From an uncultured archaeon (GTDB taxonomy: Archaea > Iainarchaeota > Iainarchaeia > Iainarchaeales > JAAZKV01): DNA of 64,000 nt. The notes under the pieces are model-generated. The model was not told the DNA's origin and did no database searches. It saw nothing but the letters and a program-made list of their open reading frames with translations. Made by a program: the position numbers and the translations under genes. The stretch is from assembly GCA_964549775.1 (NCBI GenBank), contig CAZJVN010000001.1, positions 21,028-85,027 of the forward strand. Reading direction: 5' to 3'. Positions 12,128 through 62,238 of the stretch are shown here, piece after piece (position 1 is the stretch's first letter; the number at the start of each line of letters is the position of its first letter).

Positions 12128-12190
12128 TTAAAAAAAGCATGATTAAATAGACATTAAGTGATATATGTTAGTTATTGTTTTGGTGAAAGA

Positions 12191-38523: not shown

Positions 38524-40569
38524 ATGAGTAATAAGTTAGATAAGTTATTTTCTCCAACAAGTGTAGCTATTGTTGGTGCATCAAACACTCCTGGGAAAGT
38601 GGGTTATTCAATTTTAAAAAACCTTATTGAAGCAGAATTTATTGGAGAAATTTACCCAGTAAATATTAATGATAAAATGGTCCAAGGAATTAAATCATTC
38701 TCTAGTTTAGTAGAAATTAAAAAAAATATTGATTTAACAATTATTTGTGTTCCTGCGCCAGTAGTTATTAAAGTAATGCAAGATTGTGTTAAAGCAAATG
38801 CTAAAAATGTAGTAATTATTACTTCAGGTTTTGCTGAAACTGGAGCGGAAGGAAAAAAATTGCAAGAGGAATTAGAAAAAATTGTTATTGAAAACAAAAT
38901 TAATGTTGTTGGACCAAACACTCTCGGAGTAGTTAATACTGAAAATGGACTTAATGCTTCCTTTGCCTCAACTTTCCCTAGACAAGGAGATATTGCTTTA
39001 GTTTCTCAATCAGGAGCCTTATGTACTGCAGTTCTTGATTGGGCAAGACAAGAAAAAATTGGTTTTAGCAAATTCATTAGTACGGGTAATAAAGCTTTTT
39101 TGTCAGAATGTGATTACTTTAATTATTTACAACATGACCCAAAAACAAAAGCAGTTTTTGTTTATATGGAATCAGTAAAAAATTATAAAAAGTTTTTGAA
39201 AGAAGCTAGTGAACTTGCGAAAAAGAAACCAGTCATTTTATTAAAATCTGGAAGAAGTCTTGAAGGGCAAAAAGCCGCATCTTCTCACACTGGTGCTTTA
39301 AGTGTGGATGATGAAATTTTTTCTATTGCTTGTAAAAAAACAAATATTATTAGAGTAAACTCAATTGAAGGTTTTTTTGATTTAGCAAAAATGGTTTCTA
39401 AAATAAAAAAAATTAAAGGATTCAAACTTGCAGTAGTTACTAACGCTGGAGGACCAGGAGTGATAGTAGCTGATAGTGCTGCTGCTCATAAATTTCCTCT
39501 ACCTGAATTTAGTCCAAAAACAATTCAAGCAGTAAAAGAAATTAATCCTCATTCTTCTAATCCGTTAGACTTAATTGGGGATGCAAAGCCAATTGATTAT
39601 AGAACAGCGTTAAAAGTTCTTCAAGAGGATTCAAACATTGATTTAATTTATTGTTTACTTACTCCTCAAAGTATGACTAACCCTGAAAGAGTAGCTGATG
39701 TAGTAATTTCTTTAAACAAAAAGAAACCAATAATTTGTTCGTTTATTGGAGGAACTTCTGTTTCACATCCTAGAAGATTTTTAAAAGAAAACGGGGTCCT
39801 TGAATTTGAAACTCCTGAACGAGGAATAAAAACACTTGCAAGAATGAAAGAATACTACCAAAAAAGAGAGATAAAAAAAATATTTGAACAAAAAATTGTT
39901 GTTAATAAAGATGTTAAAAAATCATTAACTGGAAAAAATAAATTAAATTTAAAAGAATCTTTTGATTTATTAAAAAAATACAATATCCCTACTTGTCAAA
40001 CAATATTTGTTTATTCAATAAGGGATATTGAAGAAAAAATTAGTTTAATCAAATTCCCAGTTGCACTAAAAACTGCTTCTGGGCTTGCTCACAAAACAGA
40101 TTTTGGCCTTGTAAAAGCAAATATTCAATCAAAAGAAGAGTTATTTATTGAAGCTGACAAAATGTTTACTATTTCAAAAGAACAAAACGTGGAAACTTGT
40201 TTAGCTGTTCAAGAAATGATTAAAGGGGAAGAATTGTTAGTGTCTTCAATTAGTAATGAGTTTGGAAAAATTATTACCTTTGGTTTAGGTGGAATATTTG
40301 TTGAAGTAATGAAAGACATTTCTCAAAAAATTGCTCCAATAAATGAATCAGATATTGAGGAAATGTTAACTGAAGTTAAGGGGGCAAAGATTTTACAAGG
40401 AATTAGAACAAAAAAGAAATATGACATTAATTCTTTAAAAAAATTGATTAAATCTTTATCAGATTTAGCTTTAACTTACCCTGAAATTAATGAGATTGAA
40501 TTTAACCCCATAATTATAACTGAAAACGGAGCATTTGTAGTAGATGCAGTAATTACAATTAAAAAATAA
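38524..40569 (+). CDS. acd: Acetyl-CoA synthetase (ADP-forming), fused alpha-beta (NDP-forming acyl-CoA synthetase)
   Basis: 681 aa. CoA-binding N-terminus (AIVGAS..PGKVGY), succinyl-CoA-synthetase-like ligase-CoA domain with active His context (SSHTGAL), C-terminal ATP-grasp. Confidence 0.85.
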   Translation: MSNKLDKLFSPTSVAIVGASNTPGKVGYSILKNLIEAEFIGEIYPVNINDKMVQGIKSFSSLVEIKKNIDLTIICVPAPVVIKVMQDCVKANAKNVVIITSGFAETGAEGKKLQEELEKIVIENKINVVGPNTLGVVNTENGLNASFASTFPRQGDIALVSQSGALCTAVLDWARQEKIGFSKFISTGNKAFLSECDYFNYLQHDPKTKAVFVYMESVKNYKKFLKEASELAKKKPVILLKSGRSLEGQKAASSHTGALSVDDEIFSIACKKTNIIRVNSIEGFFDLAKMVSKIKKIKGFKLAVVTNAGGPGVIVADSAAAHKFPLPEFSPKTIQAVKEINPHSSNPLDLIGDAKPIDYRTALKVLQEDSNIDLIYCLLTPQSMTNPERVADVVISLNKKKPIICSFIGGTSVSHPRRFLKENGVLEFETPERGIKTLARMKEYYQKREIKKIFEQKIVVNKDVKKSLTGKNKLNLKESFDLLKKYNIPTCQTIFVYSIRDIEEKISLIKFPVALKTASGLAHKTDFGLVKANIQSKEELFIEADKMFTISKEQNVETCLAVQEMIKGEELLVSSISNEFGKIITFGLGGIFVEVMKDISQKIAPINESDIEEMLTEVKGAKILQGIRTKKKYDINSLKKLIKSLSDLALTYPEINEIEFNPIIITENGAFVVDAVITIKK

Positions 40570-45138: not shown

Positions 45139-46062
45139 TTAAAACAAAGTGTCGAATATTTTTTTACCGTTTGATTCTTCTAAGTATTTCCATCTTTCGT
45201 CAACATATTTTTGTATTTTTTCAACAAGATCGGGAGTCAAATGTTTGAATCTTCCTTGCATCATCAAGTATTGTTCAACTGGTTTTTTTTCTGCTGGAGT
45301 GTAATTTAATTTCATTACCCCATTTTCAATTTCATATAATGGATAAACAGTTGTGTCTTGTGCTATTCTTGATAAATCAATTACAATTGAGGAATCAATT
45401 TTCCATCCAGGAATGCATGGAACAAATACTGAAATAAATGAGGGCCCATCAGTGTTGAGTGCTTTTTGTACTTTGTTTTTTAAATCAAATAAATTTGATA
45501 CGCTTGCAGTTGCAACATATTTTGCTCCGTGTGCTGCAATAATATAAGGTAAAGGTTTTTTTGGTTGAGTTTTTCCATGAATTACACTTCCATTTGGGCT
45601 TGTTGTTGTTGCAGCGTAAGGAAAAGTTGCTCCGCTTCTTTGTATTCCTGTATTTTGGTAAGCTTCATTGTCTGTTGCTATGTAAAGTATTTTGTGTCCT
45701 CGTTCTACAGCTCCGCTTATTGCTCCAAAGCCAATATCAAACATTGCTCCATCTCCACCAATTGCGATTACATTTGTTTTTGTATTTCCTTTTGATAAAA
45801 GCGATGCTTTTACTCCACTTGCAACAGCTGCTGCATTTTCAAATGCGCAGTGCACCCAAGGTACTTCCCATGCTGATTCTGGATAAGGGGTTGAAACTAC
45901 TTCCATACACCCAGTAGCCATTACAATCATTGTGTCTGCCCCTGCAGCTTTTAGTATGTGTCTTATTGCTAGTGCTTCTCCACATCCAGCACAAGCTCTG
46001 TGTCCGCTTGCAAAATATTCTTTTTCGTCTAAACCCAAAATTACCATAATCATCAATTCCAT
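45139..46062 (-). CDS. porB: Pyruvate:ferredoxin oxidoreductase beta subunit (TPP-binding)
   Basis: CAGCGEA.., TPP motif IAIGGDGAMFDIGFGAISGAVERGHKILYIATDNEAYQNTG. Confidence 0.85.
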   Translation of the reverse strand: MELMIMVILGLDEKEYFASGHRACAGCGEALAIRHILKAAGADTMIVMATGCMEVVSTPYPESAWEVPWVHCAFENAAAVASGVKASLLSKGNTKTNVIAIGGDGAMFDIGFGAISGAVERGHKILYIATDNEAYQNTGIQRSGATFPYAATTTSPNGSVIHGKTQPKKPLPYIIAAHGAKYVATASVSNLFDLKNKVQKALNTDGPSFISVFVPCIPGWKIDSSIVIDLSRIAQDTTVYPLYEIENGVMKLNYTPAEKKPVEQYLMMQGRFKHLTPDLVEKIQKYVDERWKYLEESNGKKIFDTLF

Positions 46063-46079
46063 TTTTGTTTTTTAAAAAA

Positions 46080-47234
46080 TTATTTTAACCAAACTCCTTC
46101 TTGTCCTTTTTCAATTATTTCAAATGCTTTTTTTATTCTTGTTCGATCAATATCTCTCCCACCAAGTCCCGCAATAAATCCAGTCACTTTTACTTTTTCT
46201 TCTTTTAGTGCAGCCTTGATGTCAGTACATAATGGCCCTTCATATCCAATTGAAACGTGTCTATCTATTACCCCTAAATTTTTTAATTTTTTTGTTGCAG
46301 AAATTATTTCTTCTTTTGGAAAGGGTCTCATTGATTTTATTCTAATTATTCCTGCTTTTTTTCCAGATTTTTGTAATTCTTCAAGAACCATTCTTGCAGT
46401 TCCAGTTACTCCACCAACTGTAACAAGAGCATATTCTGCATCTTTCATTTCTATTAACTCAATTAATCCGCCACCATATTCTCTTCCAAATTCTTTTGCA
46501 AATTCTTCATGAACTTTTTGTATTTCCTCTTTAGCTTCACTCATTGCATTTTGTTCTATTTCTTTAAATTCAAAGTAAGTGTTTGGTTGAGCAAATGCTC
46601 CAAAAGTTTTTGGGTTTTTTACATCTAAAAAATGTTCAGGGGTGTATTCTGGCAAAAATGAATCTACTTTTTCGCTAGTTTCAATTATCACTGGCTCGTA
46701 CACGTGGGTTAGAGAAAATCCATCCATGCAAACCATTACTGGGAGTAATACATTTTTTTTCTCTGCAATTTTGTAAGCCATTATTGTTGTGTCAAATGCT
46801 TCTTGTACATTTTCGCAGTAAAGTTGTATCCATCCTTGGTCTTTTTCACTCATTGTGTCAGAGTGATCGTTCCAAATATTTAGTGGGCCTGATAGTGCTC
46901 TATTTGCTACTACCATTACTGCAGGCATTCTTGATGCTGAAACAATTGGAATTATTTCATGCATTAGTGCAAGACCTTGTGAGGCTGTTGCAGTAAATGC
47001 TCTTGATCCTGCCGCGTACGCCCCATAAAGTGCACTAATTGCAGAGTGTTCACTTTCGACATGAATTAATTGAGCGTCAATTTCTCCATTAGCAATATAT
47101 TCTGATAATTTTTCTGGAATTAATGTACTTGGAGTGATTGGGTACATTGGTAAAACTTTTGGTCTACAAAGTTTTACTGCATTAGCAACTGCTTCTGAAC
47201 CAGACATAACTTTTGTTTCACTCATAAAAATCAC
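46080..47234 (-). CDS. porA: Pyruvate:ferredoxin oxidoreductase alpha subunit
   Basis: 384 aa. N-terminal ..MSGSEAVANAVKLCRPKV..YPITPST.. typical of PorA/KorA. Confidence 0.85.
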   Translation of the reverse strand: MIFMSETKVMSGSEAVANAVKLCRPKVLPMYPITPSTLIPEKLSEYIANGEIDAQLIHVESEHSAISALYGAYAAGSRAFTATASQGLALMHEIIPIVSASRMPAVMVVANRALSGPLNIWNDHSDTMSEKDQGWIQLYCENVQEAFDTTIMAYKIAEKKNVLLPVMVCMDGFSLTHVYEPVIIETSEKVDSFLPEYTPEHFLDVKNPKTFGAFAQPNTYFEFKEIEQNAMSEAKEEIQKVHEEFAKEFGREYGGGLIELIEMKDAEYALVTVGGVTGTARMVLEELQKSGKKAGIIRIKSMRPFPKEEIISATKKLKNLGVIDRHVSIGYEGPLCTDIKAALKEEKVKVTGFIAGLGGRDIDRTRIKKAFEIIEKGQEGVWLK

Positions 47235-47270
47235 TATTTTTATTTCCCCAAATTAATTTATTCAAATATT

Positions 47271-47603
47271 TTATTTTTCTTCAACCTTATATGCAATGCA
47301 TTTTACTGGGCATTCTTTTGCACAAATTAAACATCCTTTACAATATTCATAATTTACTTGAAATTTTCCGTCTTTGTCTTTATAGATTGCACCGTCAGGA
47401 CAATTTAACCAGCATTTTCCACATTTTATACATTTTGCTTGATCAATTTCTGGTTTAAATGTTCTCCAATCCCCAGTTTTGTATTTCTTTGATGAGCCTG
47501 CTTCAAGTACTGTTGCTCCAAGGTTTAGTATTATCCCTGAAGAAGTTTTCTCAACTTTTGAAACTTCTTTTTTGTTGTCCTTTTTTTCAACCATAAAATT
47601 CAC
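47271..47603 (-). CDS. porD: Pyruvate:ferredoxin oxidoreductase delta subunit (2x[4Fe-4S] ferredoxin)
   Basis: Two CxxCxxCxxxCP motifs (CIKCGKCWLNCP; CKGCLICAKECP). Confidence 0.8.
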   Translation of the reverse strand: MNFMVEKKDNKKEVSKVEKTSSGIILNLGATVLEAGSSKKYKTGDWRTFKPEIDQAKCIKCGKCWLNCPDGAIYKDKDGKFQVNYEYCKGCLICAKECPVKCIAYKVEEK

Positions 47604-47626
47604 TTTTTTTATTTACCAAAAATTAT

Positions 47627-48172
47627 TTATTTTTTTAACGAGTCTTCATAAACTTGTTTTATTGCAGACAAATTTTTTTCAAGCATTGTTCCTTTTGAAC
47701 CCATTTGTTGTTTGATTGCATTTTCTAGGGACTCTATTGTTACTTCTTTTGTTAATGCACTAAATGCTCCAAGTGCAGCAATATTTACAAAAGGTTTTCC
47801 TATTTTACTTATTGCAATTGCTGAAATATCTACACACTTTATTTTTGCTTTTGTATTTAATTTAAATTCTTCCGGTTTTTTATGAGAATTAATTATTATT
47901 AAATCACTAATATTTTCAGTTAATCCGTTTAGAAGTGTTGCATCAAGCACTATTGCATAATTTGCGTCATAAACTTGTTCTCTAAGAGTAATTTTTTTCT
48001 CATCAATTCTTGCATAACTTCTTACGGGGGCCCCAGTTCTTTCTACTCCAAAATTTGGAAAAGCTTGAGAATGTTTTTTGTCAAAGAACGCTGCTATCGC
48101 TATTATTTGTGAACTTGTAACAGCTCCTTGCCCCCCTCTTCCTAGTACTATTATTTGTTTCATTTTTTGCAT
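47627..48172 (-). CDS. porG: Pyruvate:ferredoxin oxidoreductase gamma subunit
   Basis: 181 aa. ..IVLGRGGQGAVTSSQI.. (GxGGQG) motif of POR gamma. First gene of porGDAB. Confidence 0.8.
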   Translation of the reverse strand: MQKMKQIIVLGRGGQGAVTSSQIIAIAAFFDKKHSQAFPNFGVERTGAPVRSYARIDEKKITLREQVYDANYAIVLDATLLNGLTENISDLIIINSHKKPEEFKLNTKAKIKCVDISAIAISKIGKPFVNIAALGAFSALTKEVTIESLENAIKQQMGSKGTMLEKNLSAIKQVYEDSLKK

Positions 48173-53689: not shown

Positions 53690-54094
53690 TTAGAATTTTG
53701 GAATGAATTTTGTTCCATAGTGAATTATTCCTTTTTGTCCACTTTTATAGAATTTTCTAAATACTGCTTCAACTTCTTGTCCAATTTTTAGTTCTTCATA
53801 TTTGCAATCAATTACTTGCCCAGTTATTTTTGCTCCTTCTTTTAATTCAATTATTGCTACACAGTATGGAGCCATTTGGGAGAATACTTCTGGACCAGAA
53901 TGAACTTGAGTGTAAGAAATTATTTTTCCGCTTCCAGAAAAATCCATTTCTGCATAATCTAAATTTCCGCAAGTACACATTCCTTTTTTTTCAAAATATG
54001 TTGCCCCGCATTTTGTGCATTTATACCCGCGTAATTTGTATCGGTCGTTGTAATTTCGCCATCTTAGTATTGGACTTTCTCGGAACATATTCAT
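53690..54094 (-). CDS. DUF35 OB-fold/Zn-ribbon protein (scaffold of archaeal thiolase/HMGCS complex)
   Basis: 134 aa. Zn ribbon CTKCGATYFEKKGMCTCGN and C-terminal OB fold. Confidence 0.75.
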   Translation of the reverse strand: MNMFRESPILRWRNYNDRYKLRGYKCTKCGATYFEKKGMCTCGNLDYAEMDFSGSGKIISYTQVHSGPEVFSQMAPYCVAIIELKEGAKITGQVIDCKYEELKIGQEVEAVFRKFYKSGQKGIIHYGTKFIPKF

Positions 54095-54376: not shown

Positions 54377-55531
54377 TTATTTCATTCTCTTAAACACGTG
54401 TATGCAAGCTGTTGCTCCGCTTCCACCAACGTTGTGTGTTACTCCTATTTTTGCATCTTTTACTTGTCTTTTTCCGGCTTCTCCTCGAAGTTGTGTTGTT
54501 GCTTCAATTGCTTGTTTAATTCCTGTTGCTCCTACTGGATGTCCGCATGCTTTTAATCCACCAGAAGTATTTACTGGGTGACTAGCATCAAAGTAAGTTT
54601 GTTTTTCTTTGTAAAGTTTTCTTGCTTCTCCGTGTTTTGCAAGGGCTAGTGCTTCTACTGCGTATATTTCTGCTATTGAAAAACAATCATGCACTTCTGC
54701 AAATGAAATATCTTTTGGAGTAATTTTTGCTTGAGCATAAGCTGATTCTGCTGCTATTCTTCCTGCTTTTATTTCTAAGAGTGATTCTCTTCTTGCAAGT
54801 GAGAGTGTGTCTGTTGCAAGAGCTGAAGCTGTAATGTAAACTTCGCTTCCCATTTTTTTTGCCACAGTTTCGTTTGCAATAATTATTGTTGCTGCTCCGT
54901 CTGTTATTGGTGAACAATCCATTAGTGTTAGTGGATCTGCTACCATTGTAGAATTTATTACATCGTCAAGGGTTAATTCGTTTTTGAATTGTGAGTAATC
55001 GTTTCTTGCTCCGTGGAAGTGATTTTTTACTGACACTTCTGCTAGTTCTTCTCTAGTTAAACCAAATTTGTGCATGTAAGCTTTTGCTAGTAATGCGTAA
55101 AGTCCTGGGAAAGTTAATCCATTGAATCCTTCAAGTTCTTCGTCTCCTGCTCCCATTAGTGCAGTTGTTACTTGCTCAGTAGAAACATCTGTCATTTTTT
55201 CTACTCCATTAACCATTACAATATTTGCTGCTCCGCTTTCAATTGCTTGCACTCCTTGTCTTAGTGCGATTGATCCAGAAGCACATGCTCCTTCTACTCT
55301 TATTGAGGGTTTGTCTAAATTTAGATTTTCAGTAGCCATTGCTCCAACGTGAAGTTGTCCTGAGAGTGAATCTCCACACATGTTTCCAGTAAACATTGAA
55401 TCGATTTGTTCTGGAACGATTTTTGCATCATTTAGTGCACGAAGTTGTGAGTCAAGTAATAATTCTCTAAGCCCTCTATCCCAAATTTCACCGAACTTGG
55501 TGATACCAATTCCTAAAACACCGACTTTCAT
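54377..55531 (-). CDS. Acetyl-CoA C-acetyltransferase (archaeal-type thiolase)
   Basis: MKVGVLGIGITKFGE.. start, catalytic Cys context (EGACASGS), C-terminal His/Cys thiolase motifs. Confidence 0.85.
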   Translation of the reverse strand: MKVGVLGIGITKFGEIWDRGLRELLLDSQLRALNDAKIVPEQIDSMFTGNMCGDSLSGQLHVGAMATENLNLDKPSIRVEGACASGSIALRQGVQAIESGAANIVMVNGVEKMTDVSTEQVTTALMGAGDEELEGFNGLTFPGLYALLAKAYMHKFGLTREELAEVSVKNHFHGARNDYSQFKNELTLDDVINSTMVADPLTLMDCSPITDGAATIIIANETVAKKMGSEVYITASALATDTLSLARRESLLEIKAGRIAAESAYAQAKITPKDISFAEVHDCFSIAEIYAVEALALAKHGEARKLYKEKQTYFDASHPVNTSGGLKACGHPVGATGIKQAIEATTQLRGEAGKRQVKDAKIGVTHNVGGSGATACIHVFKRMK

Positions 55532-55806
55532 TTTTTTTCACCTAATGAAATAAAAATATATGAAATTACTGGCATAATTAATAACATTATGTAATAGTTA
55601 ACTACTTGATTGATTGACGCACAATAATACTCACAAGAAGCAAATAATATTAACCAAGAATAATTTTGTTCACAAACAAATCCTGCAGGGACAACTCCAC
55701 AATATGTGAATAAGGATAATAAAACAAATAAAATTATCTCAACTATAACAATCCCCACAAAGACGAATGCTTTATTTTTTGTAATATTAAAATTCATAAT
55801 CATCAA
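55528..55806 (-). CDS. Small 3-TM membrane protein (92 aa) with Cys pairs, between HMGCS and thiolase
   Basis: Fills the 280-nt HMGCS-thiolase gap exactly, 4-nt ATGA overlap with thiolase start. Hydrophobic helices plus YCGVVPAGFVCEQ..SCEYYCAS. A chance 92-codon ORF is unlikely in DNA this AT-rich. Confidence 0.45.
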   Translation of the reverse strand: MMIMNFNITKNKAFVFVGIVIVEIILFVLLSLFTYCGVVPAGFVCEQNYSWLILFASCEYYCASINQVVNYYIMLLIMPVISYIFISLGEKK

Positions 55807-55810
55807 ATCC

Positions 55811-56860
55811 TTAATGTATTAACTCCATGTGTGATTCGTATTCTGGGTAGGTTAAGTATTCTTTTCTTTTTACATAGTCCTCTGTTGTTTTTGCTTTTTT
55901 TTGCGCAGCAGTGATTTTATCTGTTGCAGTAAAAATAAATGAATCGCTTCCAGATCCTGATCCATAAGATGTCACTAAAATTTTGTCGCCTGGTTTTGCA
56001 ATATCAAGTACACAAGTTAAACCAAGTATTGAACTTCCAGAGTAAGTGTTTCCTATTTTTGTTACAATTAATCCTGGATTAATTTGTTCTTTTGTTACCC
56101 CAAACATTTTTGCTACTCTAAGTGGAAATTTTCCGTTCGGCATGTGGAACACTACATATTTAAAATCAGTAATTTTCATTTTTGTTTTTTCTAAGATATT
56201 TTTTGTTGCATTTACTACGTGTTTAAAATATGCGGGTTCCCCAGTGAATCTCCCTGCATGACTTGGATATGGTTCTAGTGCCCTTCTCCAAAAATCTGGA
56301 GTATCTGATGTAAATGAAAGTGTTGCATCAAGTGTTGCAACTGCATCTTTGTTTTCTCCAATTATAAATGCTGCTCCGCCAGCGGCTGCAGAGTATTCTA
56401 GCGCGTTTCCTGGTTCGGCTTGACTAGTATCTGAACCAATACTTAAACCGTATTTTATCATTTTTGAATCAACTAGCCCTGCGTTTATTTGAATTGTTGC
56501 ACTTCCTGCTTTGCATGCAAACTGAGTGTCAAGAGCCGTGTAATTATTTCCAATATCAAGTGCTTCTCCAACAATTGAAGAAGTTGGTTTTACTGCATAA
56601 GGAGGAGATTCACTCCCAACATACACTGCTCCAATTTCTTTTCTGTTAATATTTGCTCTTAGTAATGCATTTCTTGCTGCAGCCACTGCAATAGTTGCTG
56701 TGTCCTCGTCTTTTCCTGGGACACTCTTTTCAACTAACCCAAGTCCGTTTTTTATTGATTCGGGTGTAGTATGTTGTACTTTTGCTATTTCTTCTACAGT
56801 TATTCTGTATTTTGGAATGTATGCTCCCCAACCAATTATTCCTGCCATGATATTATTCAC
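55811..56860 (-). CDS. Hydroxymethylglutaryl-CoA synthase (archaeal HMGCS)
   Basis: ..GIIGWGAYIPKYRI.., catalytic Cys context (TQFACKAGS), C-terminal GSGSGSD. Confidence 0.85.
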   Translation of the reverse strand: MNNIMAGIIGWGAYIPKYRITVEEIAKVQHTTPESIKNGLGLVEKSVPGKDEDTATIAVAAARNALLRANINRKEIGAVYVGSESPPYAVKPTSSIVGEALDIGNNYTALDTQFACKAGSATIQINAGLVDSKMIKYGLSIGSDTSQAEPGNALEYSAAAGGAAFIIGENKDAVATLDATLSFTSDTPDFWRRALEPYPSHAGRFTGEPAYFKHVVNATKNILEKTKMKITDFKYVVFHMPNGKFPLRVAKMFGVTKEQINPGLIVTKIGNTYSGSSILGLTCVLDIAKPGDKILVTSYGSGSGSDSFIFTATDKITAAQKKAKTTEDYVKRKEYLTYPEYESHMELIH

Positions 56861-56888: not shown

Positions 56889-58187
56889 CTATTTTTTTCT
56901 CAATTTTTTTATTATCTCTTCTGCTTTAGCTTGATTTATTTCTTTTGAAGTGATCATTTCTTCTGCAACTTTGTCAATTTCATTTTCGCTTGCTCCAGCT
57001 CCTGCAGCTAATGCTCGAGCGTGTAACTTCATGTGTCCTTGTTGAATTCCTACTGTTGCAAGTGCTCTTAGTGCGGCAAAATTTTGTGCTAACCCCACGC
57101 ATGCTGCTATGCTTGTTAGTTCTTTTGAATTTTTTACTCCAAGAATTTTTAGTGATAATTGCGCCATGGGGTTTAGTTTTGCTGTTCCTCCAATTGTTGC
57201 AAGAACAATTGGTAATTCTATCTCTCCAACCAAGTCTCCTTTTTTATTTTTATAATATTTGGTTAGTGGAAGATATTTCCCTTTTTCTTTATAAGCCGCA
57301 AAAGAATGTACTCCTGCTTCAACCCCTCTAAAATCATTTCCAGTAGCAATTGTTAGTGCGTCAATTCCATTCATTATTCCTTTGTTATGAGTTGCTGCTC
57401 TAAATGGAGAACTTATTGCAAATTCGTAAGCGTCTAAAATATTTTCAATTATTTGTTCTCCACTTAAACCAAATTGACCGCTTCCTTCTAGTTTTTCTTT
57501 TGTCCAAATTGTACTAGCTCTTGCTTTTCTATGAATTGCAAGATTTGAAATAATTCTAAGAAGTGCTTTTCCTCCAGAAATTTTTTCAACTAAAGGAGTT
57601 ATTTTTTCTGTCATTGTATTTATTGCATTTGCCCCCATTGCATCACGAACATCCACTAATAATTGTAATTCTATCATCTCTCCGCGTGTTGTTTTTAGTA
57701 CCTCTCCTTTTAGGTCACGCGGCCCTCCTCCAAATTTTACTAAAACTGAATCTACTTTTTCTGCTTCTGCCAAAATTTCTTTTTTTGAATCAAGAATTTT
57801 CTTTAATGCACTTTTTGCATTCTTCATTTTTACTAATTGTATTTGTCCTATCATTACTGGTTCATCACTGGATGTGGAAAATCCACTAGATAATTTTGCG
57901 GCGTTACTTGCAGCCGCGACCACACTTGGTTCTTCAAGAACAAATGGAACCAAATATTCTTTTCCATCAATAACAAAATTTGTTGCAATTCCATAAGGTA
58001 GAGAAAATGTACCCACTACATTTTCTATCATTTTGTCTGCGTTAGATAAAGGTAAATTACTTTCTTTAAGTAAAGTGTTTTTTTCTTCAATAGTTAATGC
58101 ATATTCTTTTGATAGAATTTCTTGTCTTTCTTTTATTGTCTTTTTGTAAAATCCATCAAAATTTTTTGAATTCAAATTAATCACCAA
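56889..58187 (-). CDS. hmgA: HMG-CoA reductase (class I, NADPH-dependent)
   Basis: 432 aa. ..DAMGANAINTM.., ..GTIGG.., C-terminal GHMKLHARA. Confidence 0.9.
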   Translation of the reverse strand: MVINLNSKNFDGFYKKTIKERQEILSKEYALTIEEKNTLLKESNLPLSNADKMIENVVGTFSLPYGIATNFVIDGKEYLVPFVLEEPSVVAAASNAAKLSSGFSTSSDEPVMIGQIQLVKMKNAKSALKKILDSKKEILAEAEKVDSVLVKFGGGPRDLKGEVLKTTRGEMIELQLLVDVRDAMGANAINTMTEKITPLVEKISGGKALLRIISNLAIHRKARASTIWTKEKLEGSGQFGLSGEQIIENILDAYEFAISSPFRAATHNKGIMNGIDALTIATGNDFRGVEAGVHSFAAYKEKGKYLPLTKYYKNKKGDLVGEIELPIVLATIGGTAKLNPMAQLSLKILGVKNSKELTSIAACVGLAQNFAALRALATVGIQQGHMKLHARALAAGAGASENEIDKVAEEMITSKEINQAKAEEIIKKLRKK

Positions 58188-58221
58188 AAAAATTTAAAAT
58201 TAAAAACTTCTTTTATAAAAT

Positions 58222-59559
58222 TTATTCTCCGTTTTTTTGTTTATTTTTTTCTAACTCCTGTTCTATTAATTGTCTTTGTTTTGCTTCTGCTTCTGCTTTA
58301 TCTTTTTTATTAAAATAATGGATTATTGATTTTGCAGCGTCTCTTCCTGTGGATATTGCTTCAATCACTGTTTTTGGTCCGTGTACACAATCTCCGCCTG
58401 CAAATAAATTTGGCACAATGGTTTGTTTATTTTTGTTTACTAGTATGCATCCGTCTGGTCCAATTTTTATTACATCTTTTAAAGAATCATTATCATGTTG
58501 TTGCCCAATTGCTACTATTACTTTATCCGCTTCAATTGATCCACTTTCTCCATTTTTATAATATACCTTTTCTACATGTTCTTTTCCTTCAAATTTTTCC
58601 ACTTGAACACCAAAAATAAATTTTACTCCTTCCTCTTCTGCTTCGATATAATCTTTTTCAGTTACTGACTTGTGAGCTTCTTCTTTTGATGCATAAGTTA
58701 TACAAGTTACTTTTCCGCCTAAACGTACTGCACTTCTTGCAGCGTCTATTCCAACATAGCCTGCTCCTATTACAACTACTTTTTCTCCTGGAGAAATCAT
58801 TGGTAGTGAACTTTGATTTAAATTTACTAAAAATTTCATTGCGTTCATTATTCCTTTAAGTTCGCTTCCCTCATTATTTAGCATTTTTGGTTTTCCTACT
58901 CCAGTCCCCATAAATACTACGTCATATTTTTTTACTAGTTCTTCTAAAATATCTGCGTCAATTTTTACGTTGGGTTCAAAGTCTACCCCGAGATCATGTA
59001 ATCCTGATATTTTTCTTGATACTATTTCTTTTGGTAGTCTGAATTCTGGAACTCCATATTTTATTACTCCCCCAAAAGTGTTTGTTCCTTCCATTACGGT
59101 TACATTTGCTCCATAAATTGATAAAAGTGCGGCCACTGTTAATCCACTTGGACCTGAACCTATTACTGCTACTTTTTTTTCATTATTCTTTTCTCGTTTT
59201 GGAAAAATTGTGTTATCCCCAATGTATCTTTCTATTGCTCCAATTGAGATTGGATCTTTTTTTGAATTAAGAATGCAAGCCCCTTCGCATTGTTTTTCAT
59301 GTTGACAAATTCTTCCACAAATACTTGGGAAAAAATTACTTTCTCTTATTATTTCTCCTGCTTCATTAGTGTTTCCTTCTCTAAAGGCTTTAAGAAATGC
59401 GGGAATATTTACTTTTGCGGGGCAACCTTCCACGCATTTTGGTAATTTACATTGAAGACAACGGTTTGCCTCAATTATTGCTTCTTCTTTAGTAAAACCT
59501 AGTTCTACCTCTTTAAAGGAATTTTTTCTTTCATCTAAAGGCAATAGCGGTACTTTCAT
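58222..59559 (-). CDS. GltD/NfnB/SudA-like NAD(P)H-dependent Fe-S flavoprotein (glutamate-synthase small-subunit family)
   Basis: 445 aa. N-terminal 2x[4Fe-4S] Cys clusters (CLQCKLPKCVEGCP; CGRICQHEKQCEGAC), then FAD (VAVIGSGPSG) and NAD(P) (VVVIGAGYVGID) Rossmann motifs. 35 nt upstream of hmgA. Confidence 0.75.
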   Translation of the reverse strand: MKVPLLPLDERKNSFKEVELGFTKEEAIIEANRCLQCKLPKCVEGCPAKVNIPAFLKAFREGNTNEAGEIIRESNFFPSICGRICQHEKQCEGACILNSKKDPISIGAIERYIGDNTIFPKREKNNEKKVAVIGSGPSGLTVAALLSIYGANVTVMEGTNTFGGVIKYGVPEFRLPKEIVSRKISGLHDLGVDFEPNVKIDADILEELVKKYDVVFMGTGVGKPKMLNNEGSELKGIMNAMKFLVNLNQSSLPMISPGEKVVVIGAGYVGIDAARSAVRLGGKVTCITYASKEEAHKSVTEKDYIEAEEEGVKFIFGVQVEKFEGKEHVEKVYYKNGESGSIEADKVIVAIGQQHDNDSLKDVIKIGPDGCILVNKNKQTIVPNLFAGGDCVHGPKTVIEAISTGRDAAKSIIHYFNKKDKAEAEAKQRQLIEQELEKNKQKNGE

Positions 59560-59615: not shown

Positions 59616-59763
59616 CTCACCAACAGTAAGATGAATAAGGGGTTTAAGTATAAAAACCTATCCAAACAACGAAGAGCAAAACGTCAATTGACGAAAGAAA
59701 CTGGTTTTTTGAGCAATGTGGCCTTTTTTTAATAATTATTTGAATTATTTGATCTTTAAAATT

Positions 59764-60363
59764 TTATTTTTCTATTTTTTTGTTTTGTTCTTTTTTTAAA
59801 AGTAGTTTTTTCCAATCAAATAAAAAAAATGCTAAAATTGATACAACCCCTATTATTTCAATTGTTATGATCCAAATAGTTGCGCTCCCTGCGAGAGTTG
59901 TTTCAAGAGAGGTAAATATTTTTTCTGAAGTGAATACCAAAAATAAATAACTTATACTTCTTCCAACAAAAAATCCTGCGATAATTTCTCTTAGCCTTAT
60001 TTTTGTTGTTCCTACTGCAATAAAGAGTGAATTTGAAGGGAAAGGGAGTAGAGAAAAAATAACACTAAAAATAAATTTTTTCCAACTCTTTCCTTTTAAC
60101 TTGTTTCGAATTATCCCCATTTCTTCTTTTTTATCTTGACTTGCTAATTTATAAAAAACTTTTCTTGATAATATCGCAAGTACATATCTTCCGCAAGTCG
60201 AAGCTGTTACCCCTATAAAAATTAAAATAAGCAAATTTTGAGGGTTTGCAATATAAAAATAAGCGAGAACAATCCATGTTGGAGGGGCAAAAACAGGGAC
60301 AACATTTAACCCAAAAATAATTAACCATTCAAAAATTAGTTGTATTAGATCCATAATTATCAA
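59764..60363 (-). CDS. DedA/TVP38-like membrane protein (candidate)
   Basis: 199 aa, about 5 TMs. ..LLPFPSNSLFIAVGTTKIRLREIIAGFFVGRSISY.. resembles the DedA re-entrant loop motifs (conserved R/G). Confidence 0.4.
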   Translation of the reverse strand: MIIMDLIQLIFEWLIIFGLNVVPVFAPPTWIVLAYFYIANPQNLLILIFIGVTASTCGRYVLAILSRKVFYKLASQDKKEEMGIIRNKLKGKSWKKFIFSVIFSLLPFPSNSLFIAVGTTKIRLREIIAGFFVGRSISYLFLVFTSEKIFTSLETTLAGSATIWIITIEIIGVVSILAFFLFDWKKLLLKKEQNKKIEK

Positions 60364-61449: not shown

Positions 61450-62238
61450 TTATATTCTTCTTCTTTCTTCATTAATCATTCTTGAGAATTCCCCATATTT
61501 TTCACCAATTTCTTCTTGTATAATTTTTCCTATAGCGTCTTGCATTGCGATAAAAACGAAATGATTTGTAAAAGAAACTAATTTTGGAGAAGGGGTCGAT
61601 TTTGGATTAATTACTAATTGAGCTTTTGTTATTTCTGCAATTAATGATTCGTTTGCAGGATTTTTTAGCATAAGTACAAGAGAAGGATCACTTTTGTTTC
61701 TTGTTTTTCCATCAAAAGCTTCAATAAATAAATTAATTACTCCGTGGTTATTTGAAAATAATCTAACAATTAAAGGTTTATTTTTTTTTGTAAAAGAATG
61801 AAACTCCTCAACCACCTCTACTGGTGCGATTCCTCTCGCTTTTGCTAAAATTGAAGCAGCTTTTCTTAATCGAAATAAATAAAGAATATTTGTTAACTTT
61901 GTTCCCCTAAAACCAAGTCCTAATAAAACTTTTTTTCGAGCATTCATTACTTGTTCATTTTTTTGAACAAACGCTTTTCCTACAAGTTCTTTTACCTCTC
62001 CAAAAGCAGGGGTTTGGGTTATGAAAGCTTCTTTTCTATTTTTTTCTTTTAATTCTCTTTTCTTTGCTTCGACTTCTTTAAGTAAACTTAGATTTATTTT
62101 TTCTCTAACTTCCTTTCCTTTTTTTTGAGAAATAGTTATTATTGTATCATCTTTTGAAGCGTTTCTTATTTTTATCCTTGAAGTTGGATTAGTTTTTGGT
62201 TTTTTGTAAACTGGCATAAAATCACATTTTTCTTTCAA
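61450..62238 (-). CDS. Conserved hypothetical protein (about 255-262 aa) embedded between GGPP synthase and IDI-2
   Basis: Basic N-terminus, no motif recognised (..GIAPVEVVEEFHSF..FIEAFDGKTRNKSDPSLVLMLKNP..). Likely ATG at 62217 (MPVYKK) giving a 4-nt gap to GGPPS. Confidence 0.5.
   Translation of the reverse strand: MKEKCDFMPVYKKPKTNPTSRIKIRNASKDDTIITISQKKGKEVREKINLSLLKEVEAKKRELKEKNRKEAFITQTPAFGEVKELVGKAFVQKNEQVMNARKKVLLGLGFRGTKLTNILYLFRLRKAASILAKARGIAPVEVVEEFHSFTKKNKPLIVRLFSNNHGVINLFIEAFDGKTRNKSDPSLVLMLKNPANESLIAEITKAQLVINPKSTPSPKLVSFTNHFVFIAMQDAIGKIIQEEIGEKYGEFSRMINEERRRI

What the first reader, a model, noticed from the sequence alone, without database searches (positions are those of the whole stretch)
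58222..59559. GltD/NfnB-like Fe-S flavoprotein directly upstream of HMG-CoA reductase: possible ferredoxin-to-NADPH bridge between POR and HMGR
A stand-alone glutamate-synthase-small-subunit-family protein (2x[4Fe-4S], FAD, NAD(P)H) heads the HMGR-HMGCS-thiolase operon. No NfnA/SudB-type partner gene is adjacent. Class I HMGR consumes 2 NADPH per mevalonate, and POR in the same array produces reduced ferredoxin. A dedicated electron bridge co-transcribed with HMGR would make the array a self-contained pyruvate-to-isoprenoid module. This is inference from context; members of this family have diverse roles.
Basis: inference. Interest (0 to 1): 0.55.

Follow-up and report, generated by a model that had tools for sequence, protein, structure and literature searches.

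The report
Partner-less NfnB-like reductase paired with HMGR
In a group of tiny DPANN archaea, the gene for an iron-sulfur flavoprotein normally used to move electrons between ferredoxin and NADP(H) has lost its usual partner, sits directly in front of the HMG-CoA reductase gene and apparently shares its promoter, which suggests a dedicated supplier of reducing power for membrane-lipid synthesis.

Summary
The ORF at 58222-59559 (minus strand, 445 aa) is real. It is a GltD-family Fe-S flavoprotein (Fer4_20 + Pyr_redox_2), closest in sequence and predicted fold to the large subunit of Nfn (NfnB/NfnL/SudA), not to the GOGAT small subunit.

It belongs to a small monophyletic archaeal clade (NJ bootstrap 100/100, about 100 clusters). 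In every resolvable locus (44-87% identity, five upstream contexts) the clade gene lies upstream of a class II HMG-CoA reductase. None of these loci has nfnA. All 77 canonical relatives sampled have nfnA directly upstream and none has HMGR nearby.

A conserved palindrome plus BRE/TATA element precedes the gene. A second copy precedes HMGCS where HMGCS is split off. It is never found in front of HMGR, so the two genes look like one transcription unit.

The HMGR is class II, not class I. Both proteins carry NADH-type rather than NADPH-type signatures.

Most likely function: a non-bifurcating ferredoxin:NAD(P)+ oxidoreductase feeding HMGR, probably with NADH. This is inferred and no activity was tested. 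NAD-kinase genes beside HMGR in two loci argue for caution on the cofactor. It is a new variant of the recently described stand-alone NfnB-like Fnor enzymes.

The parts
59682..59693 (.). Perfect 12-bp palindrome CGTCAATTGACG, a putative operator of a mevalonate-pathway regulator
   Evidence: The same palindrome (up to 2 mismatches) lies at the same position upstream of the GltD-like gene in about 30 related loci. A second copy lies upstream of HMGCS wherever HMGCS is separated from HMGR. Chance expectation is 0.8 per 64 kb. The surrounding block is conserved in the alignment.
59648..59665 (-). BRE/TATA-like box TTGGATAGGTTTTTATAC, 16 nt downstream of the palindrome and 88 nt upstream of the ATG
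   Evidence: It keeps a fixed 16-nt spacing from the palindrome in the related loci and is conserved in the alignment. Its promoter function is inferred from the archaeal TATA consensus and was not tested.
58222..59559 (-). Partner-less NfnB/NfnL-like Fe-S flavoprotein (445 aa): two [4Fe-4S] sites, FAD, and a remodelled nicotinamide pocket
   Evidence: Pfam Fer4_20 + Pyr_redox_2. PDB sequence hits: 5vj7_A 1.6e-89, 5jca_L 1.8e-88, 4ylf_B 2.9e-83. AF2 model pLDDT 81.9; best fold match 5jca_L, TM 0.75. Clade signatures.
58176..58221 (-). 46-nt intergenic spacer with Shine-Dalgarno-like GGTGA (58185-58181) 5 nt before the HMGR start; no copy of the palindrome/TATA element
   Evidence: A GGTG/GGAG/GAGG motif sits 5-12 nt upstream of the aligned HMGR start in nearly all loci. 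The element is absent between the two genes in all loci.
56889..58175 (-). Class II HMG-CoA reductase (start probably TTG 58175; the ORF can be read from 58187)
   Evidence: TIGR00532 439 bits above its cut-off; class I model far below cut-off. 1qax 3e-115. Cofactor helix D146-S-V-L-V-K-F152 matches the NADH-type Dx(V/L)xxxL rather than (H/Y)xSxxxR.
55811..56860 (-). Archaeal HMG-CoA synthase
   Evidence: NF003274 524.8 bits, TIGR00748 489.6 bits.
54377..55531 (-). Archaeal acetoacetyl-CoA thiolase
   Evidence: NF004720 513 bits. Pfam Thiolase_N and Thiolase_C_1.
53690..54094 (-). DUF35/ChsH2-type OB-fold protein, the scaffold of the archaeal thiolase/HMGCS complex
   Evidence: Pfam OB_ChsH2_C and zf-ChsH2. 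The scaffold role is from established knowledge and was not tested here.
45139..48172 (-). Four-subunit pyruvate:ferredoxin oxidoreductase (gamma, delta, alpha, beta), a plausible source of reduced ferredoxin and acetyl-CoA. This is context, not shown to be coupled.
   Evidence: Pfam POR, Fer4 dicluster, POR_N + PFOR_II, TPP_enzyme_C. Same strand, at the end of the same gene array.

Best explanation
The gene encodes a partner-less descendant of the Nfn large subunit (NfnB/NfnL/SudA branch of the GltD family). It keeps the two [4Fe-4S] clusters and the FAD but has lost the NfnA subunit.

It most likely works as a simple, non-bifurcating ferredoxin:NAD(P)+ oxidoreductase:
- Reduced ferredoxin donates single electrons through the two clusters to FAD. 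In this organism the ferredoxin can be made by the POR encoded at the end of the same gene array.
- FADH- then hands a hydride to the nicotinamide cofactor, which HMGR consumes (2 per mevalonate).
- Both proteins carry NADH-type rather than NADPH-type sequence signatures, so the shuttle cofactor is predicted to be NAD(H).

Shown: family, fold, cofactor-ligand conservation, loss of nfnA, monophyly, conserved pairing with HMGR, the conserved promoter element and the sequence signatures.

Inferred: direction of electron flow, ferredoxin as partner, the cofactor, and dedication to HMGR.
For: Family and fold:
- Sequence is closest to NfnL/NfnB and so is the predicted fold.
- Cluster ligands are retained: C34/37/42/46, C81/85/91/95 and E110, which aligns with Pf E126. 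The FAD-N5 arginine R174 (Pf R201) is invariant.

Gene context:
- nfnA is directly upstream in 77/77 canonical loci. It is absent from all clade loci and from the 64-kb window.
- The clade is monophyletic, 100/100 NJ bootstraps.
- HMGR is the next gene in 22 distinct loci. In 2 more it lies downstream on the same strand after an insertion. There are no counter-examples. The loci span 44-87% identity and upstream neighbours IDI2, PPDK, an HTH protein, a Cas4-like protein and PTA. Gaps run from a 14-bp overlap to about 200 bp.
- The composite palindrome + TATA element lies upstream of the GltD-like gene and upstream of a split-off HMGCS, never upstream of HMGR. An SD precedes HMGR.

Precedent for the activity:
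- Isolated NfnB and stand-alone NfnB homologues catalyse Fd-to-NADP+ reduction (PMC12221290).

Cofactor:
- GxGxxG in 32/32 clade members against GxGxxA in 98/98 others. YRR in 0/32 against 97/98. PAR in 0/32 against 97/98. The loop carrying Pf R382 is shortened.
- The two arginines bind the 2'-phosphate of NADP+ in NfnB (PMC6405883).
- All 20 aligned linked HMGRs have D-x-(V/I/M/T)-L-x-x-F; L127 has the same helix and L128 reads D-A-V-L-S-K-L, with Leu at the last position. Dx(V/L)xxxL marks NADH enzymes and (H/Y)xSxxxR marks NADPH enzymes (PMC13488460). The Asp is the NADH determinant (PMC12292504).
- The best PDB matches are the NADH-using P. mevalonii, D. acidovorans and B. cenocepacia enzymes.

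Physiology:
- The window encodes POR and ADP-forming acetyl-CoA synthetase, a ferredoxin-centred fermentative metabolism.
- Iainarchaeota are described as ferredoxin-dependent fermenters (PMC11216029).
Against: - There is no biochemical or transcript evidence.
- In the window's own subclade the residue at the second-Arg position is variable (A/E/S/G/D) rather than a conserved acid, so dual specificity is possible.
- An NAD-kinase gene sits just upstream of HMGR in L126, which lacks the flavoprotein. An NADK-like gene lies between the flavoprotein and HMGR in L127. This hints that NADP(H) matters to HMGR in these lineages.
- HMGRs of related archaea that lack the flavoprotein (L125, L126) carry the same Asp motif. 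The motif therefore does not co-vary with presence of the flavoprotein.
- No conserved ferredoxin gene lies in the neighbourhoods.
- The rest of each genome could not be searched for nfnA or gltB.
- The motif rules for HMGR come from bacterial enzymes.
Confidence: 0.5

Rival explanations
1. The protein is an NADPH-linked stand-alone Fnor of the Cac_0764 kind that makes NADPH from reduced ferredoxin. HMGR, and possibly other anabolic enzymes, use NADPH. Adjacency reflects only that lipid synthesis is the main NADPH sink.
For: - All characterised stand-alone NfnB-like Fnors and isolated NfnBs are NADPH-linked, with NADH activity at least 10-fold lower (PMC12221290).
- The protein shares two of that class's three criteria: no nfnA, and Pf Arg333 replaced by Thr.
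- NAD-kinase genes lie next to HMGR in L126 and L127.
- A. fulgidus class II HMGR is listed among the NADPH-preferring enzymes that use both cofactors, and is cited as the one other HMGR with comparable cofactor plasticity.
Against: - The 2'-phosphate-binding arginines (Pf R324/R325) are absent in 32/32 clade members, and the fingerprint is GxGxxG rather than GxGxxA. [quoted passage not shown]
- The N-terminus is long (first Cys at 34 against Pf 42), not 25-31 residues shorter as in cluster 2.
- The HMGR helix is of the NADH type.
Confidence: 0.2
2. The enzyme serves another redox client of the isoprenoid-lipid pathway rather than HMGR. One option is keeping the FMN of type-2 IPP isomerase reduced. 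Another is running NADH-to-ferredoxin to feed geranylgeranyl reductase.
For: - IDI2 is the upstream neighbour in many subclade-a loci.
- GltD-type modules deliver electrons to FMN barrels in GOGAT and DPD (established knowledge). IDI2 gives a weak Glu_synthase hit.
- A GGR gene and a 56-aa 2x[4Fe-4S] ferredoxin lie 7 kb upstream in L001.
Against: - The IDI2 adjacency is not conserved. It is absent in L087, L089-L091, L119, L120, L122 and L128 and interrupted in the window, L002 and L084. The HMGR adjacency always holds.
- IDI2 has no Fe-S relay, and its reaction is redox-neutral.
- NADH-to-ferredoxin is uphill without bifurcation, and POR already supplies reduced ferredoxin.
Confidence: 0.1
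3. It is still the large subunit of a bifurcating Nfn (or Xfn) whose small subunit is encoded elsewhere in the genome.
For: - It has the NfnB-like long N-terminus, the Glu-ligated proximal cluster and the N5 arginine.
- Only 64 kb of the genome, and at most 17 kb of each related contig, could be inspected.
Against: - nfnA is immediately upstream in 77/77 canonical loci and in none of about 30 clade loci.
- Pf Arg333, proposed to be needed for the bifurcating semiquinone, is Thr/Ser here.
- The NADPH site is remodelled.
Confidence: 0.05
4. It is a glutamate synthase component: either the small subunit of GOGAT or a Pyrococcus KOD1 GltA-type homotetramer.
For: - Databases label relatives 'glutamate synthase small chain'.
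- The best NCBIfam model is TIGR01316 gltA.
Against: - TIGR01316 scores 363.6 bits against a cut-off of 471.75. TIGR01317 and TIGR01318 are far below their cut-offs.
- GOGAT small subunits are more distant (1e-65) than NfnB (1e-89).
- No gltB occurs in the window or in any locus.
- The conserved context is mevalonate, not nitrogen, metabolism.
Confidence: 0.03

Closest known systems
[quoted passage not shown]
   Same: - Best sequence and fold match: 36-40% identity in the Foldseek alignments, TM 0.75-0.77.
- Same domain order.
- Same cluster motifs, RCx2Cx4Cx3CP and GR.C..E.QCx3C...G..ER including the Glu ligand.
- Same FAD-N5 arginine.
- Comparably long N-terminus.
   Different: - No NfnA partner gene.
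- GxGxxG instead of GxGxxA.
- Both 2'-phosphate arginines are lost, and Arg333 is Thr.
- The loop carrying R382 is deleted.
- It is encoded with HMGR under a mevalonate-pathway promoter.
Cac_0764-type 'cluster 2' stand-alone Fnor (Huang et al., JBC 2025, PMC12221290)
   Same: - A stand-alone Fer4_20 + Pyr_redox_2 protein without nfnA.
- Arg333 is not conserved (Thr/Ser).
- The expected chemistry is non-energy-conserving electron transfer between ferredoxin and a nicotinamide cofactor.
   Different: - The N-terminus is not shortened.
- The NADP(H)-contacting basic residues are not retained.
- NAD(H) is predicted instead of NADPH.
- It is archaeal (DPANN) and tied to one pathway gene.
GltD, small subunit of NADPH-glutamate synthase (A. 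brasilense 6S6S_G / 2VDC_G), and the N-terminal half of dihydropyrimidine dehydrogenase
   Same: Same superfamily and fold. Each is an NAD(P)H/FAD/2x[4Fe-4S] electron-input module.
   Different: - More distant (1e-65 for GltD, 1e-28 for DPD).
- Those modules hand electrons to an FMN-containing catalytic partner. HMGR has no flavin or Fe-S centre, so any coupling must pass through a free or channelled nicotinamide cofactor.
Class II HMG-CoA reductases using NADH (P. mevalonii 1QAX, D. acidovorans 6DIO, B. cenocepacia 6P7K)
   Same: - The linked reductase matches them best (3e-115 to 5e-109).
- It shares the catalytic motifs and the Asp-containing cofactor helix.
   Different: - The last position of the helix motif is Phe instead of Leu.
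- It is set in an archaeal biosynthetic mevalonate operon, not a catabolic one.
- The cofactor preference is untested.

Membership tests
GltD/NfnB/DPD-type Fe-S flavoprotein superfamily | N-terminal Fer4_20 domain followed by a Pyr_redox_2 FAD/NAD(P) domain | tested here: met
   Pfam Fer4_20 E 1.6e-38 and Pyr_redox_2 E 1.4e-39. Fold match to 5jca_L, 4ylf_B, 6s6s_E and 1gt8.
NfnB/NfnL (bifurcating Nfn large subunit) | Ligands of the two [4Fe-4S] clusters, including the site-differentiated Glu (Pf E126), and the Arg at FAD N5 (Pf R201 / Tm R187) | tested here: met
   C34, C37, C42, C46, C81, C85, C91, C95, E110 and R174 are invariant in the 29-sequence clade alignment. Residues were mapped through the phmmer alignment to 5jca_L. 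Motifs are as listed in PMC6405883.
NfnB/NfnL (bifurcating Nfn large subunit) | An nfnA gene immediately upstream | tested here: not met
   tblastn with an NfnA query hits 77/77 canonical loci directly upstream. It gives no hit in the window or in any clade locus.
NfnB/NfnL (bifurcating Nfn large subunit) | Conserved Arg333 (Pf numbering) next to the bifurcating FAD | tested here: not met
   It aligns with T300 in the window protein. The PAR motif is present in 0/32 clade members against 97/98 others. The criterion comes from PMC12221290.
NfnB/NfnL (bifurcating Nfn large subunit) | Two conserved arginines binding the 2'-phosphate of NADP(H), and a GxGxxA fingerprint | tested here: not met
   YRR is replaced by T-Y-A in the window (Pf Y323/R324/R325 = T288/Y289/A290); the basic pair is absent across the clade. 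YRR 0/32 and GxGxxG 32/32 in the clade, against YRR 97/98 and GxGxxA 98/98 elsewhere. The role of the arginines is stated in PMC6405883.
Cac_0764-type stand-alone Fnor (cluster 2 of PMC12221290) | No nfnA nearby, and Arg333 not conserved | tested here: met
.
Cac_0764-type stand-alone Fnor (cluster 2 of PMC12221290) | N-terminus 25-31 residues shorter than in NfnB | tested here: not met
   The first cluster cysteine is at residue 34, against 42 in PfNfnI-B. That is only 8 residues shorter.
Cac_0764-type stand-alone Fnor (cluster 2 of PMC12221290) | NADPH-linked ferredoxin oxidation, with NADP(H)-contacting residues kept basic or polar | not testable with these tools
   Activity cannot be measured here. 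At the sequence level, positions Pf R324/R325 are Y/A and the R382 loop is deleted, which argues against it.
Cac_0764-type stand-alone Fnor (cluster 2 of PMC12221290) | Phylogenetic placement inside that cluster | not tested
In the NJ tree the clade is separated from all sampled NfnB-type sequences.
Glutamate synthase small subunit / homotetrameric GltA (TIGR01317, TIGR01318, TIGR01316) | Score above the curated NCBIfam cut-off, and a gltB partner | tested here: not met
   TIGR01316 scores 363.6 bits (cut-off 471.75), TIGR01318 283.5 (482.95) and TIGR01317 225.1 (447.7). No gltB occurs in the window or the related loci. The rest of the genome is not testable.
Class II HMG-CoA reductase (the linked gene) | TIGR00532 above its cut-off, plus the catalytic motifs EEPSVVAA, DAMGAN, HNKGIMNG and GHMKLHA | tested here: met
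   439 bits against a cut-off of 259.95. The motifs are present in the window and in divergent loci.
NADH-preferring class II HMGR | Cofactor-helix motif Dx(V/L)xxxL, as opposed to (H/Y)xSxxxR for NADPH | tested here: inconclusive
   The window has D146-S-V148-L-V-K-F152, so Asp and Val match and the last position is Phe. L128 has the full motif D-A-V-L-S-K-L. The rule comes from bacterial enzymes. Activity is untested.

The most novel reading that the evidence does not exclude
The flavoprotein and HMGR form a physical complex that makes HMG-CoA reduction effectively ferredoxin-driven. A bound or channelled NAD(H) would be re-reduced in situ by electrons arriving through the two [4Fe-4S] clusters and FAD. 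The committed step of archaeal lipid synthesis would then be pulled by low-potential electrons and become independent of the cellular NAD(P)H pool. Such a ferredoxin-dependent HMG-CoA reductase system has not been described.
Probability: 0.15. Interest if true: 0.8.

Novelty: new variant of a known kind. Interest (0 to 1): 0.6.

Why it matters
HMG-CoA reduction is the committed, reductant-hungry step of isoprenoid and archaeal membrane-lipid synthesis. No dedicated reductant-supply enzyme is known for it.

A conserved, co-promoted ferredoxin:NAD(P)+ oxidoreductase would add an accessory enzyme to the archaeal mevalonate pathway. It would explain how ferredoxin-centred fermenters with tiny genomes (Iainarchaeota and relatives) fund lipid synthesis.

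It would also extend the newly recognised stand-alone NfnB-like Fnor class to archaea, to an apparently NAD-type pocket, and to a pathway-dedicated role.

The natural NADPH-to-NADH switch (GxGxxA to GxGxxG, loss of three arginines and a loop) is a ready-made guide for engineering cofactor specificity in Nfn/GltD-type enzymes and for ferredoxin-driven mevalonate pathways.

The palindromic operator gives a handle on an unknown regulator of archaeal lipid synthesis.

Tried and rejected
Searches that gave little:
- The exact look-up of the window protein's contig found nothing on record. The 28 kb of the contig outside the window could not be read.
It returned only 4 clade loci and 77 distant NfnAB loci. 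The distant loci became the control set.
- Cluster look-up gave no taxonomic names for the divergent subclades. Their phyla remain unknown.
- Rfam and tRNA scans of the window found nothing.

Ideas tested and dropped:
- I looked for GltD-like/HMGR fusion proteins among the 120 best HMGR homologues and found none.
- I looked for a conserved ferredoxin gene next to the pair. Only L001 has one, next to GGR.
- I tested whether the unknown 262-aa ORF (61450-62238) is the NADK-like protein of L127. There is no similarity.
- From memory I thought Tsac_1705 was a GltD-like NADH-Fnor. The literature shows it is PyrK-like, so I dropped it as an analogue.
- L097 first looked like a counter-example with no HMGR downstream. 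Like L088, it carries an inserted HMGL-like gene, and the contig ends inside that gene.
- The bacterial promoter/terminator scanner was not used because it does not model archaeal signals.

Literature:
- Four literature searches found no paper linking NfnB/GltD-like proteins with HMGR.
Full report
**What is there**

The ORF at 58222-59559 (minus strand, ATG start, 445 aa) is real. It is identical to a protein predicted on a 92,569-bp NCBI contig.
- Pfam finds Fer4_20 (residues 12-117, E 1.6e-38) and Pyr_redox_2 (128-405, E 1.4e-39).
- The window has about 29% G+C and is archaeal. It carries Cdc6/Orc1, both PolD subunits, ribosomal S3Ae, CDP-archaeol synthase and SecDF.
- The closest homologues (53-84% identity) are labelled Candidatus Diapherotrites or Ca. 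Iainarchaeum, which is DPANN phylum Iainarchaeota.

On the minus strand the gene sits in an 18-kb single-strand array:
- GGPP synthase, an unknown 262-aa ORF, type-2 IPP isomerase, a VTT/DedA membrane protein, then a 204-bp gap.
- The GltD-like gene, HMGR, HMGCS, a 92-aa membrane ORF, thiolase and DUF35.
- Mevalonate kinase, UbiX, UbiD-type decarboxylase, aconitase-X large and small subunits, and isopentenyl-phosphate kinase.
- The four POR subunits.

**Corrections to the observation**

- The HMGR is class II. TIGR00532 scores 439 bits against a cut-off of 260. The class I model TIGR00533 scores 52 bits against 442. P. mevalonii HMGR is the best solved match at 3e-115.
- The starts of 25 homologues align with residue 5 of the listed ORF. 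A GGTGA Shine-Dalgarno motif sits 5 nt before that TTG. HMGR therefore most likely starts at 58175, and the spacer to the GltD-like stop codon is 46 nt.

**Which branch of the family**

- By sequence the protein is nearest the large subunit of Nfn: P. furiosus NfnII/Xfn 1.6e-89, NfnI 1.8e-88, T. maritima NfnB 2.9e-83. GOGAT small subunits (about 1e-65) and DPD (4e-28) follow.
- An AlphaFold2 model built on a 29-sequence alignment (pLDDT 81.9) gives the same order by fold. 5jca_L is first at TM 0.75.
- No NCBIfam glutamate-synthase model reaches its cut-off.
- The eight cluster cysteines are invariant in the clade. So are the Glu that ligates the proximal cluster (E110, Pf E126) and the arginine on FAD N5 (R174, Pf R201 / Tm R187).

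**The partner is missing and HMGR takes its place**

I used an NfnA sequence taken from a Desulfitobacterium locus as a tblastn probe.
- It found nfnA immediately upstream in 77 of 77 distant loci at 36-42% identity. These come from bacteria, Bathyarchaeia, Thorarchaeota and Methanosarcinales.
- It found none in the clade loci or in the whole 64-kb window.
- None of those 77 loci has HMGR nearby.

Every clade locus with readable downstream sequence has a class II HMGR as the next gene on the same strand.
- This holds for 22 distinct loci including the window.
- Two more have insertions: an HMGL-like gene in L088 and an NADK-like gene in L127.
- One, L097, is cut inside such an insertion.

The pairing persists in divergent lineages with different upstream neighbours:

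| Protein | Identity | Spacing to HMGR | Upstream neighbour |
|---|---|---|---|
| P0080 | 53% | 8-bp gap | IDI2 |
| P0086 | 50% | 14-bp overlap | PPDK |
| P0094 | 45% | 11-bp gap | Cas4-like gene |
| P0099 | 44% | 40-bp gap | HTH gene |
| P0243 | not computed vs the window (46% to P0086) | 48-bp gap | PTA |

- The IDI2 adjacency is much less constant.
- In an NJ tree the HMGR-linked sequences, plus 11 database hits sharing their motifs, form one clade in 100 of 100 bootstraps.
- A profile search shows the clade is small, about 100 clusters at 90% identity.
- Other partner-less relatives (P0110, P0115; next to nrdDG) lie outside the clade and keep the canonical motifs.
- From the HMGR side the association is not universal. 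A Micrarchaeota-labelled HMGR (L125) and another archaeal HMGR (L126) lack the flavoprotein.

**One transcription unit**

The 204-bp region upstream of the gene holds an unusually conserved block.
- It consists of a perfect palindrome CGTCAATTGACG (59682-59693), then 16 nt, then TTGGATAGGTTTTTATAC (59648-59665), a BRE/TATA-like box.
- The same composite, with the same spacing, lies upstream of the GltD-like gene in about 30 loci of the window's subclade.
- A second copy lies upstream of HMGCS exactly in those loci where other genes separate HMGCS from HMGR: L001, L002, L003, L084, L089, L091, L093 and L127.
- It is never found between the GltD-like gene and HMGR.
- About 0.8 matches to the palindrome at up to 2 mismatches are expected per 64 kb by chance.
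- HMGR is instead preceded by a Shine-Dalgarno-like motif in nearly all loci.

This is sequence evidence, not transcript evidence. It says that the flavoprotein and HMGR share a mevalonate-specific promoter.

**The cofactor pocket has been rebuilt**

All 78 canonical-type sequences from the fetched loci and 20 further database homologues outside the clade show GGGNVAMDAAR...YRR(S/T)E.E(M/L)PAR. That is a GxGxxA fingerprint (98/98), the YRR pair (97/98) and the PAR arginine (97/98).

The 32 clade members differ at each feature:
- GxGxxG in 32/32.
- No YRR (0/32) and no PAR (0/32).
- A segment about 16 residues shorter that removes the GEPDESGRRRP loop.

Mapped to P. furiosus NfnI-B through the alignment:
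- R324/R325 become Y289/A290.
- R333 becomes T300.
- R382 is deleted.

In the model these residues follow strand 283-287 of the second Rossmann fold.

The literature bears on these positions as follows:
- Two conserved arginines of NfnB hydrogen-bond the 2'-phosphate of NADP+ (PMC6405883).
- R325 and R382 contact NADP(H), and R333 is proposed to support bifurcation (PMC12221290).
- GxGxxA with arginines versus GxGxxG with an acid is the textbook NADP/NAD distinction in Rossmann folds (established knowledge).
- The divergent subclades have Glu at the second-Arg position (T-R/L-E-S, A-L-E-S). The window's subclade has variable small or acidic residues there.

**The linked HMGR points the same way**

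- Miller and Kung's cofactor-helix rule, as quoted in PMC13488460, is Dx(V/L)xxxL for NADH enzymes and (H/Y)xSxxxR for NADPH enzymes.
- The Asp is the experimentally verified NADH determinant. D154K in R. pomeroyi gives a 53.7-fold gain with NADPH (PMC12292504).
- The window HMGR reads D146-S-V-L-V-K-F152. All 20 aligned linked HMGRs read D-x-(V/I/M/T)-L-x-x-F.
- L128 has the exact NADH motif D-A-V-L-S-K-L.
- The three best solved matches are the NADH-using enzymes of P. mevalonii, D. acidovorans and B. cenocepacia. The NADPH-preferring S. pneumoniae enzyme scores lower and has Y/S/R at these positions.

**Most likely mechanism**

- HMGR has no flavin or Fe-S centre. Electrons from a GltD-type module can therefore reach it only as a hydride on a nicotinamide cofactor.
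- Isolated NfnB subunits and stand-alone NfnB homologues catalyse ferredoxin-dependent NADP+ reduction, an exergonic reaction (PMC12221290).
- I therefore read the protein as a non-bifurcating ferredoxin:NAD(P)+ oxidoreductase whose product is consumed by the co-transcribed HMGR. NAD(H) is the predicted carrier.
- In this organism POR and an ADP-forming acetyl-CoA synthetase (38524-40569) indicate pyruvate fermentation with ferredoxin as the main reductant. This agrees with descriptions of Iainarchaeota as ferredoxin/H2 fermenters.
- Three pyruvates give three acetyl-CoA and six electrons on ferredoxin. One mevalonate needs four electrons (established stoichiometry).

Confidence in this overall role is about 0.5. 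Given the role, I put NADH over NADPH at about 0.6.

**Reasons for caution**

- Nothing has been measured.
- The window's own subclade lacks a conserved acidic residue in the pocket.
- A bona fide NAD kinase lies just upstream of HMGR in L126. An NADK-like gene lies between the flavoprotein and HMGR in L127.
- The Asp motif is also present in HMGRs without the flavoprotein.
- No ferredoxin gene is conserved nearby.
- The rest of the genomes could not be searched.

**Comparison with what is known**

- The closest described class is the Cac_0764-type stand-alone Fnor (PMC12221290).
- The present clade meets two of that class's three criteria: no nfnA, and Arg333 not conserved.
- It fails the short-N-terminus criterion, because its first Cys is at residue 34 against 42 in Pf.
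- It also lacks the basic NADP(H) contacts.
- It is not a bifurcating NfnB by three tested criteria, and not a GOGAT subunit (see the membership table).
- Searches of the paper library found no report linking NfnB/GltD-like proteins with HMGR. Surveys of archaeal mevalonate genes do not mention it either.
- I file it as a new variant of a known kind.

**Verdict**

The link to HMGR is strong. The ferredoxin-to-nicotinamide bridge is plausible. NADPH and class I are wrong or unlikely. The POR coupling is untested.

Noticed in passing
window 59648-59693; also L001 7871-7916 and 12030-12041, L002 12074-12120, L089 7144-7190, L117 5923-5968: A conserved composite element lies upstream of the flavoprotein gene and of split-off HMGCS genes in many related archaea. 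It is the palindrome CGTCAATTGACG, then 16 nt, then TTGGA(T/A)AGGTTTTTATAC. It looks like the operator and promoter of an unknown mevalonate-pathway regulator.
   Followed up: yes
L126 2453-3217; L127 3175-3972: A NAD kinase gene lies just upstream of HMGR in a lineage without the flavoprotein (L126). A diverged NADK-like gene with GTDGT and TGTGSTS motifs is inserted between the flavoprotein and HMGR in L127. This hints that NADP supply is also tied to HMGR in some lineages.
   Followed up: partly
C-termini of P0003, P0005, P0008, P0011-P0050 and others; window 58222-58300: About 40 clade members carry a C-terminal extension ending in a strongly conserved ...P-K-(I/V)-D-x-(S/T)-N-K-D-I motif. 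Another subclade ends ...NEFSNFKVL. The window protein has a K/E-rich helical tail without the motif. This may be a docking peptide; its function is unknown.
   Followed up: partly
window 58175-58187: The HMGR start codon is probably the TTG at 58175 (preceded by GGTGA), not the first in-frame TTG at 58187. The database entry P0123 starts at the GTG at 58184.
   Followed up: yes
L088 7920-9035; L097 about 1450-2553: A 371-aa HMGL-like (isopropylmalate/citramalate synthase or HMG-CoA-lyase family) gene is inserted between the flavoprotein gene and HMGR in two loci.
   Followed up: no
L117 1668-4127: The GGPP synthase homologue is 819 aa long and carries Hint/intein and LAGLIDADG hits. This indicates an intein inside a polyprenyl synthase.
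   Followed up: no
window 59764-60363 and 55528-55806: A VTT/DedA-family membrane protein lies between IDI2 and the flavoprotein gene and is conserved in L082, L083 and L086. A 92-aa membrane ORF overlaps the thiolase start. DedA proteins have been implicated in polyprenyl-phosphate translocation (from memory), which would fit the isoprenoid context.
   Followed up: no
window 61450-62238: A 262-aa ORF with no Pfam hit lies between GGPP synthase and IDI2 and overlaps the GGPPS stop by 17 nt. Homologues at 47% identity occupy the same position in L082 and L086.
   Followed up: partly
window 7031-16560: Three consecutive large ORFs (1698, 566 and 901 aa) have no Pfam match at E<=1e-5.
   Followed up: no
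L123 5001-6401; L124 5001-6389: A different group of partner-less NfnB-like proteins (P0110/P0115 type) keeps the canonical GxGxxA/YRR/PAR motifs. These genes lie convergent to nrdG-nrdD and downstream of a 3-hydroxyisobutyrate-dehydrogenase-like gene. They have neither nfnA nor HMGR nearby.
   Followed up: partly
window 38524-40569 and 45139-48172: ADP-forming acetyl-CoA synthetase and four-subunit POR occur in the same window. This gives a pyruvate-to-acetate ATP-yielding route that makes reduced ferredoxin.
   Followed up: partly
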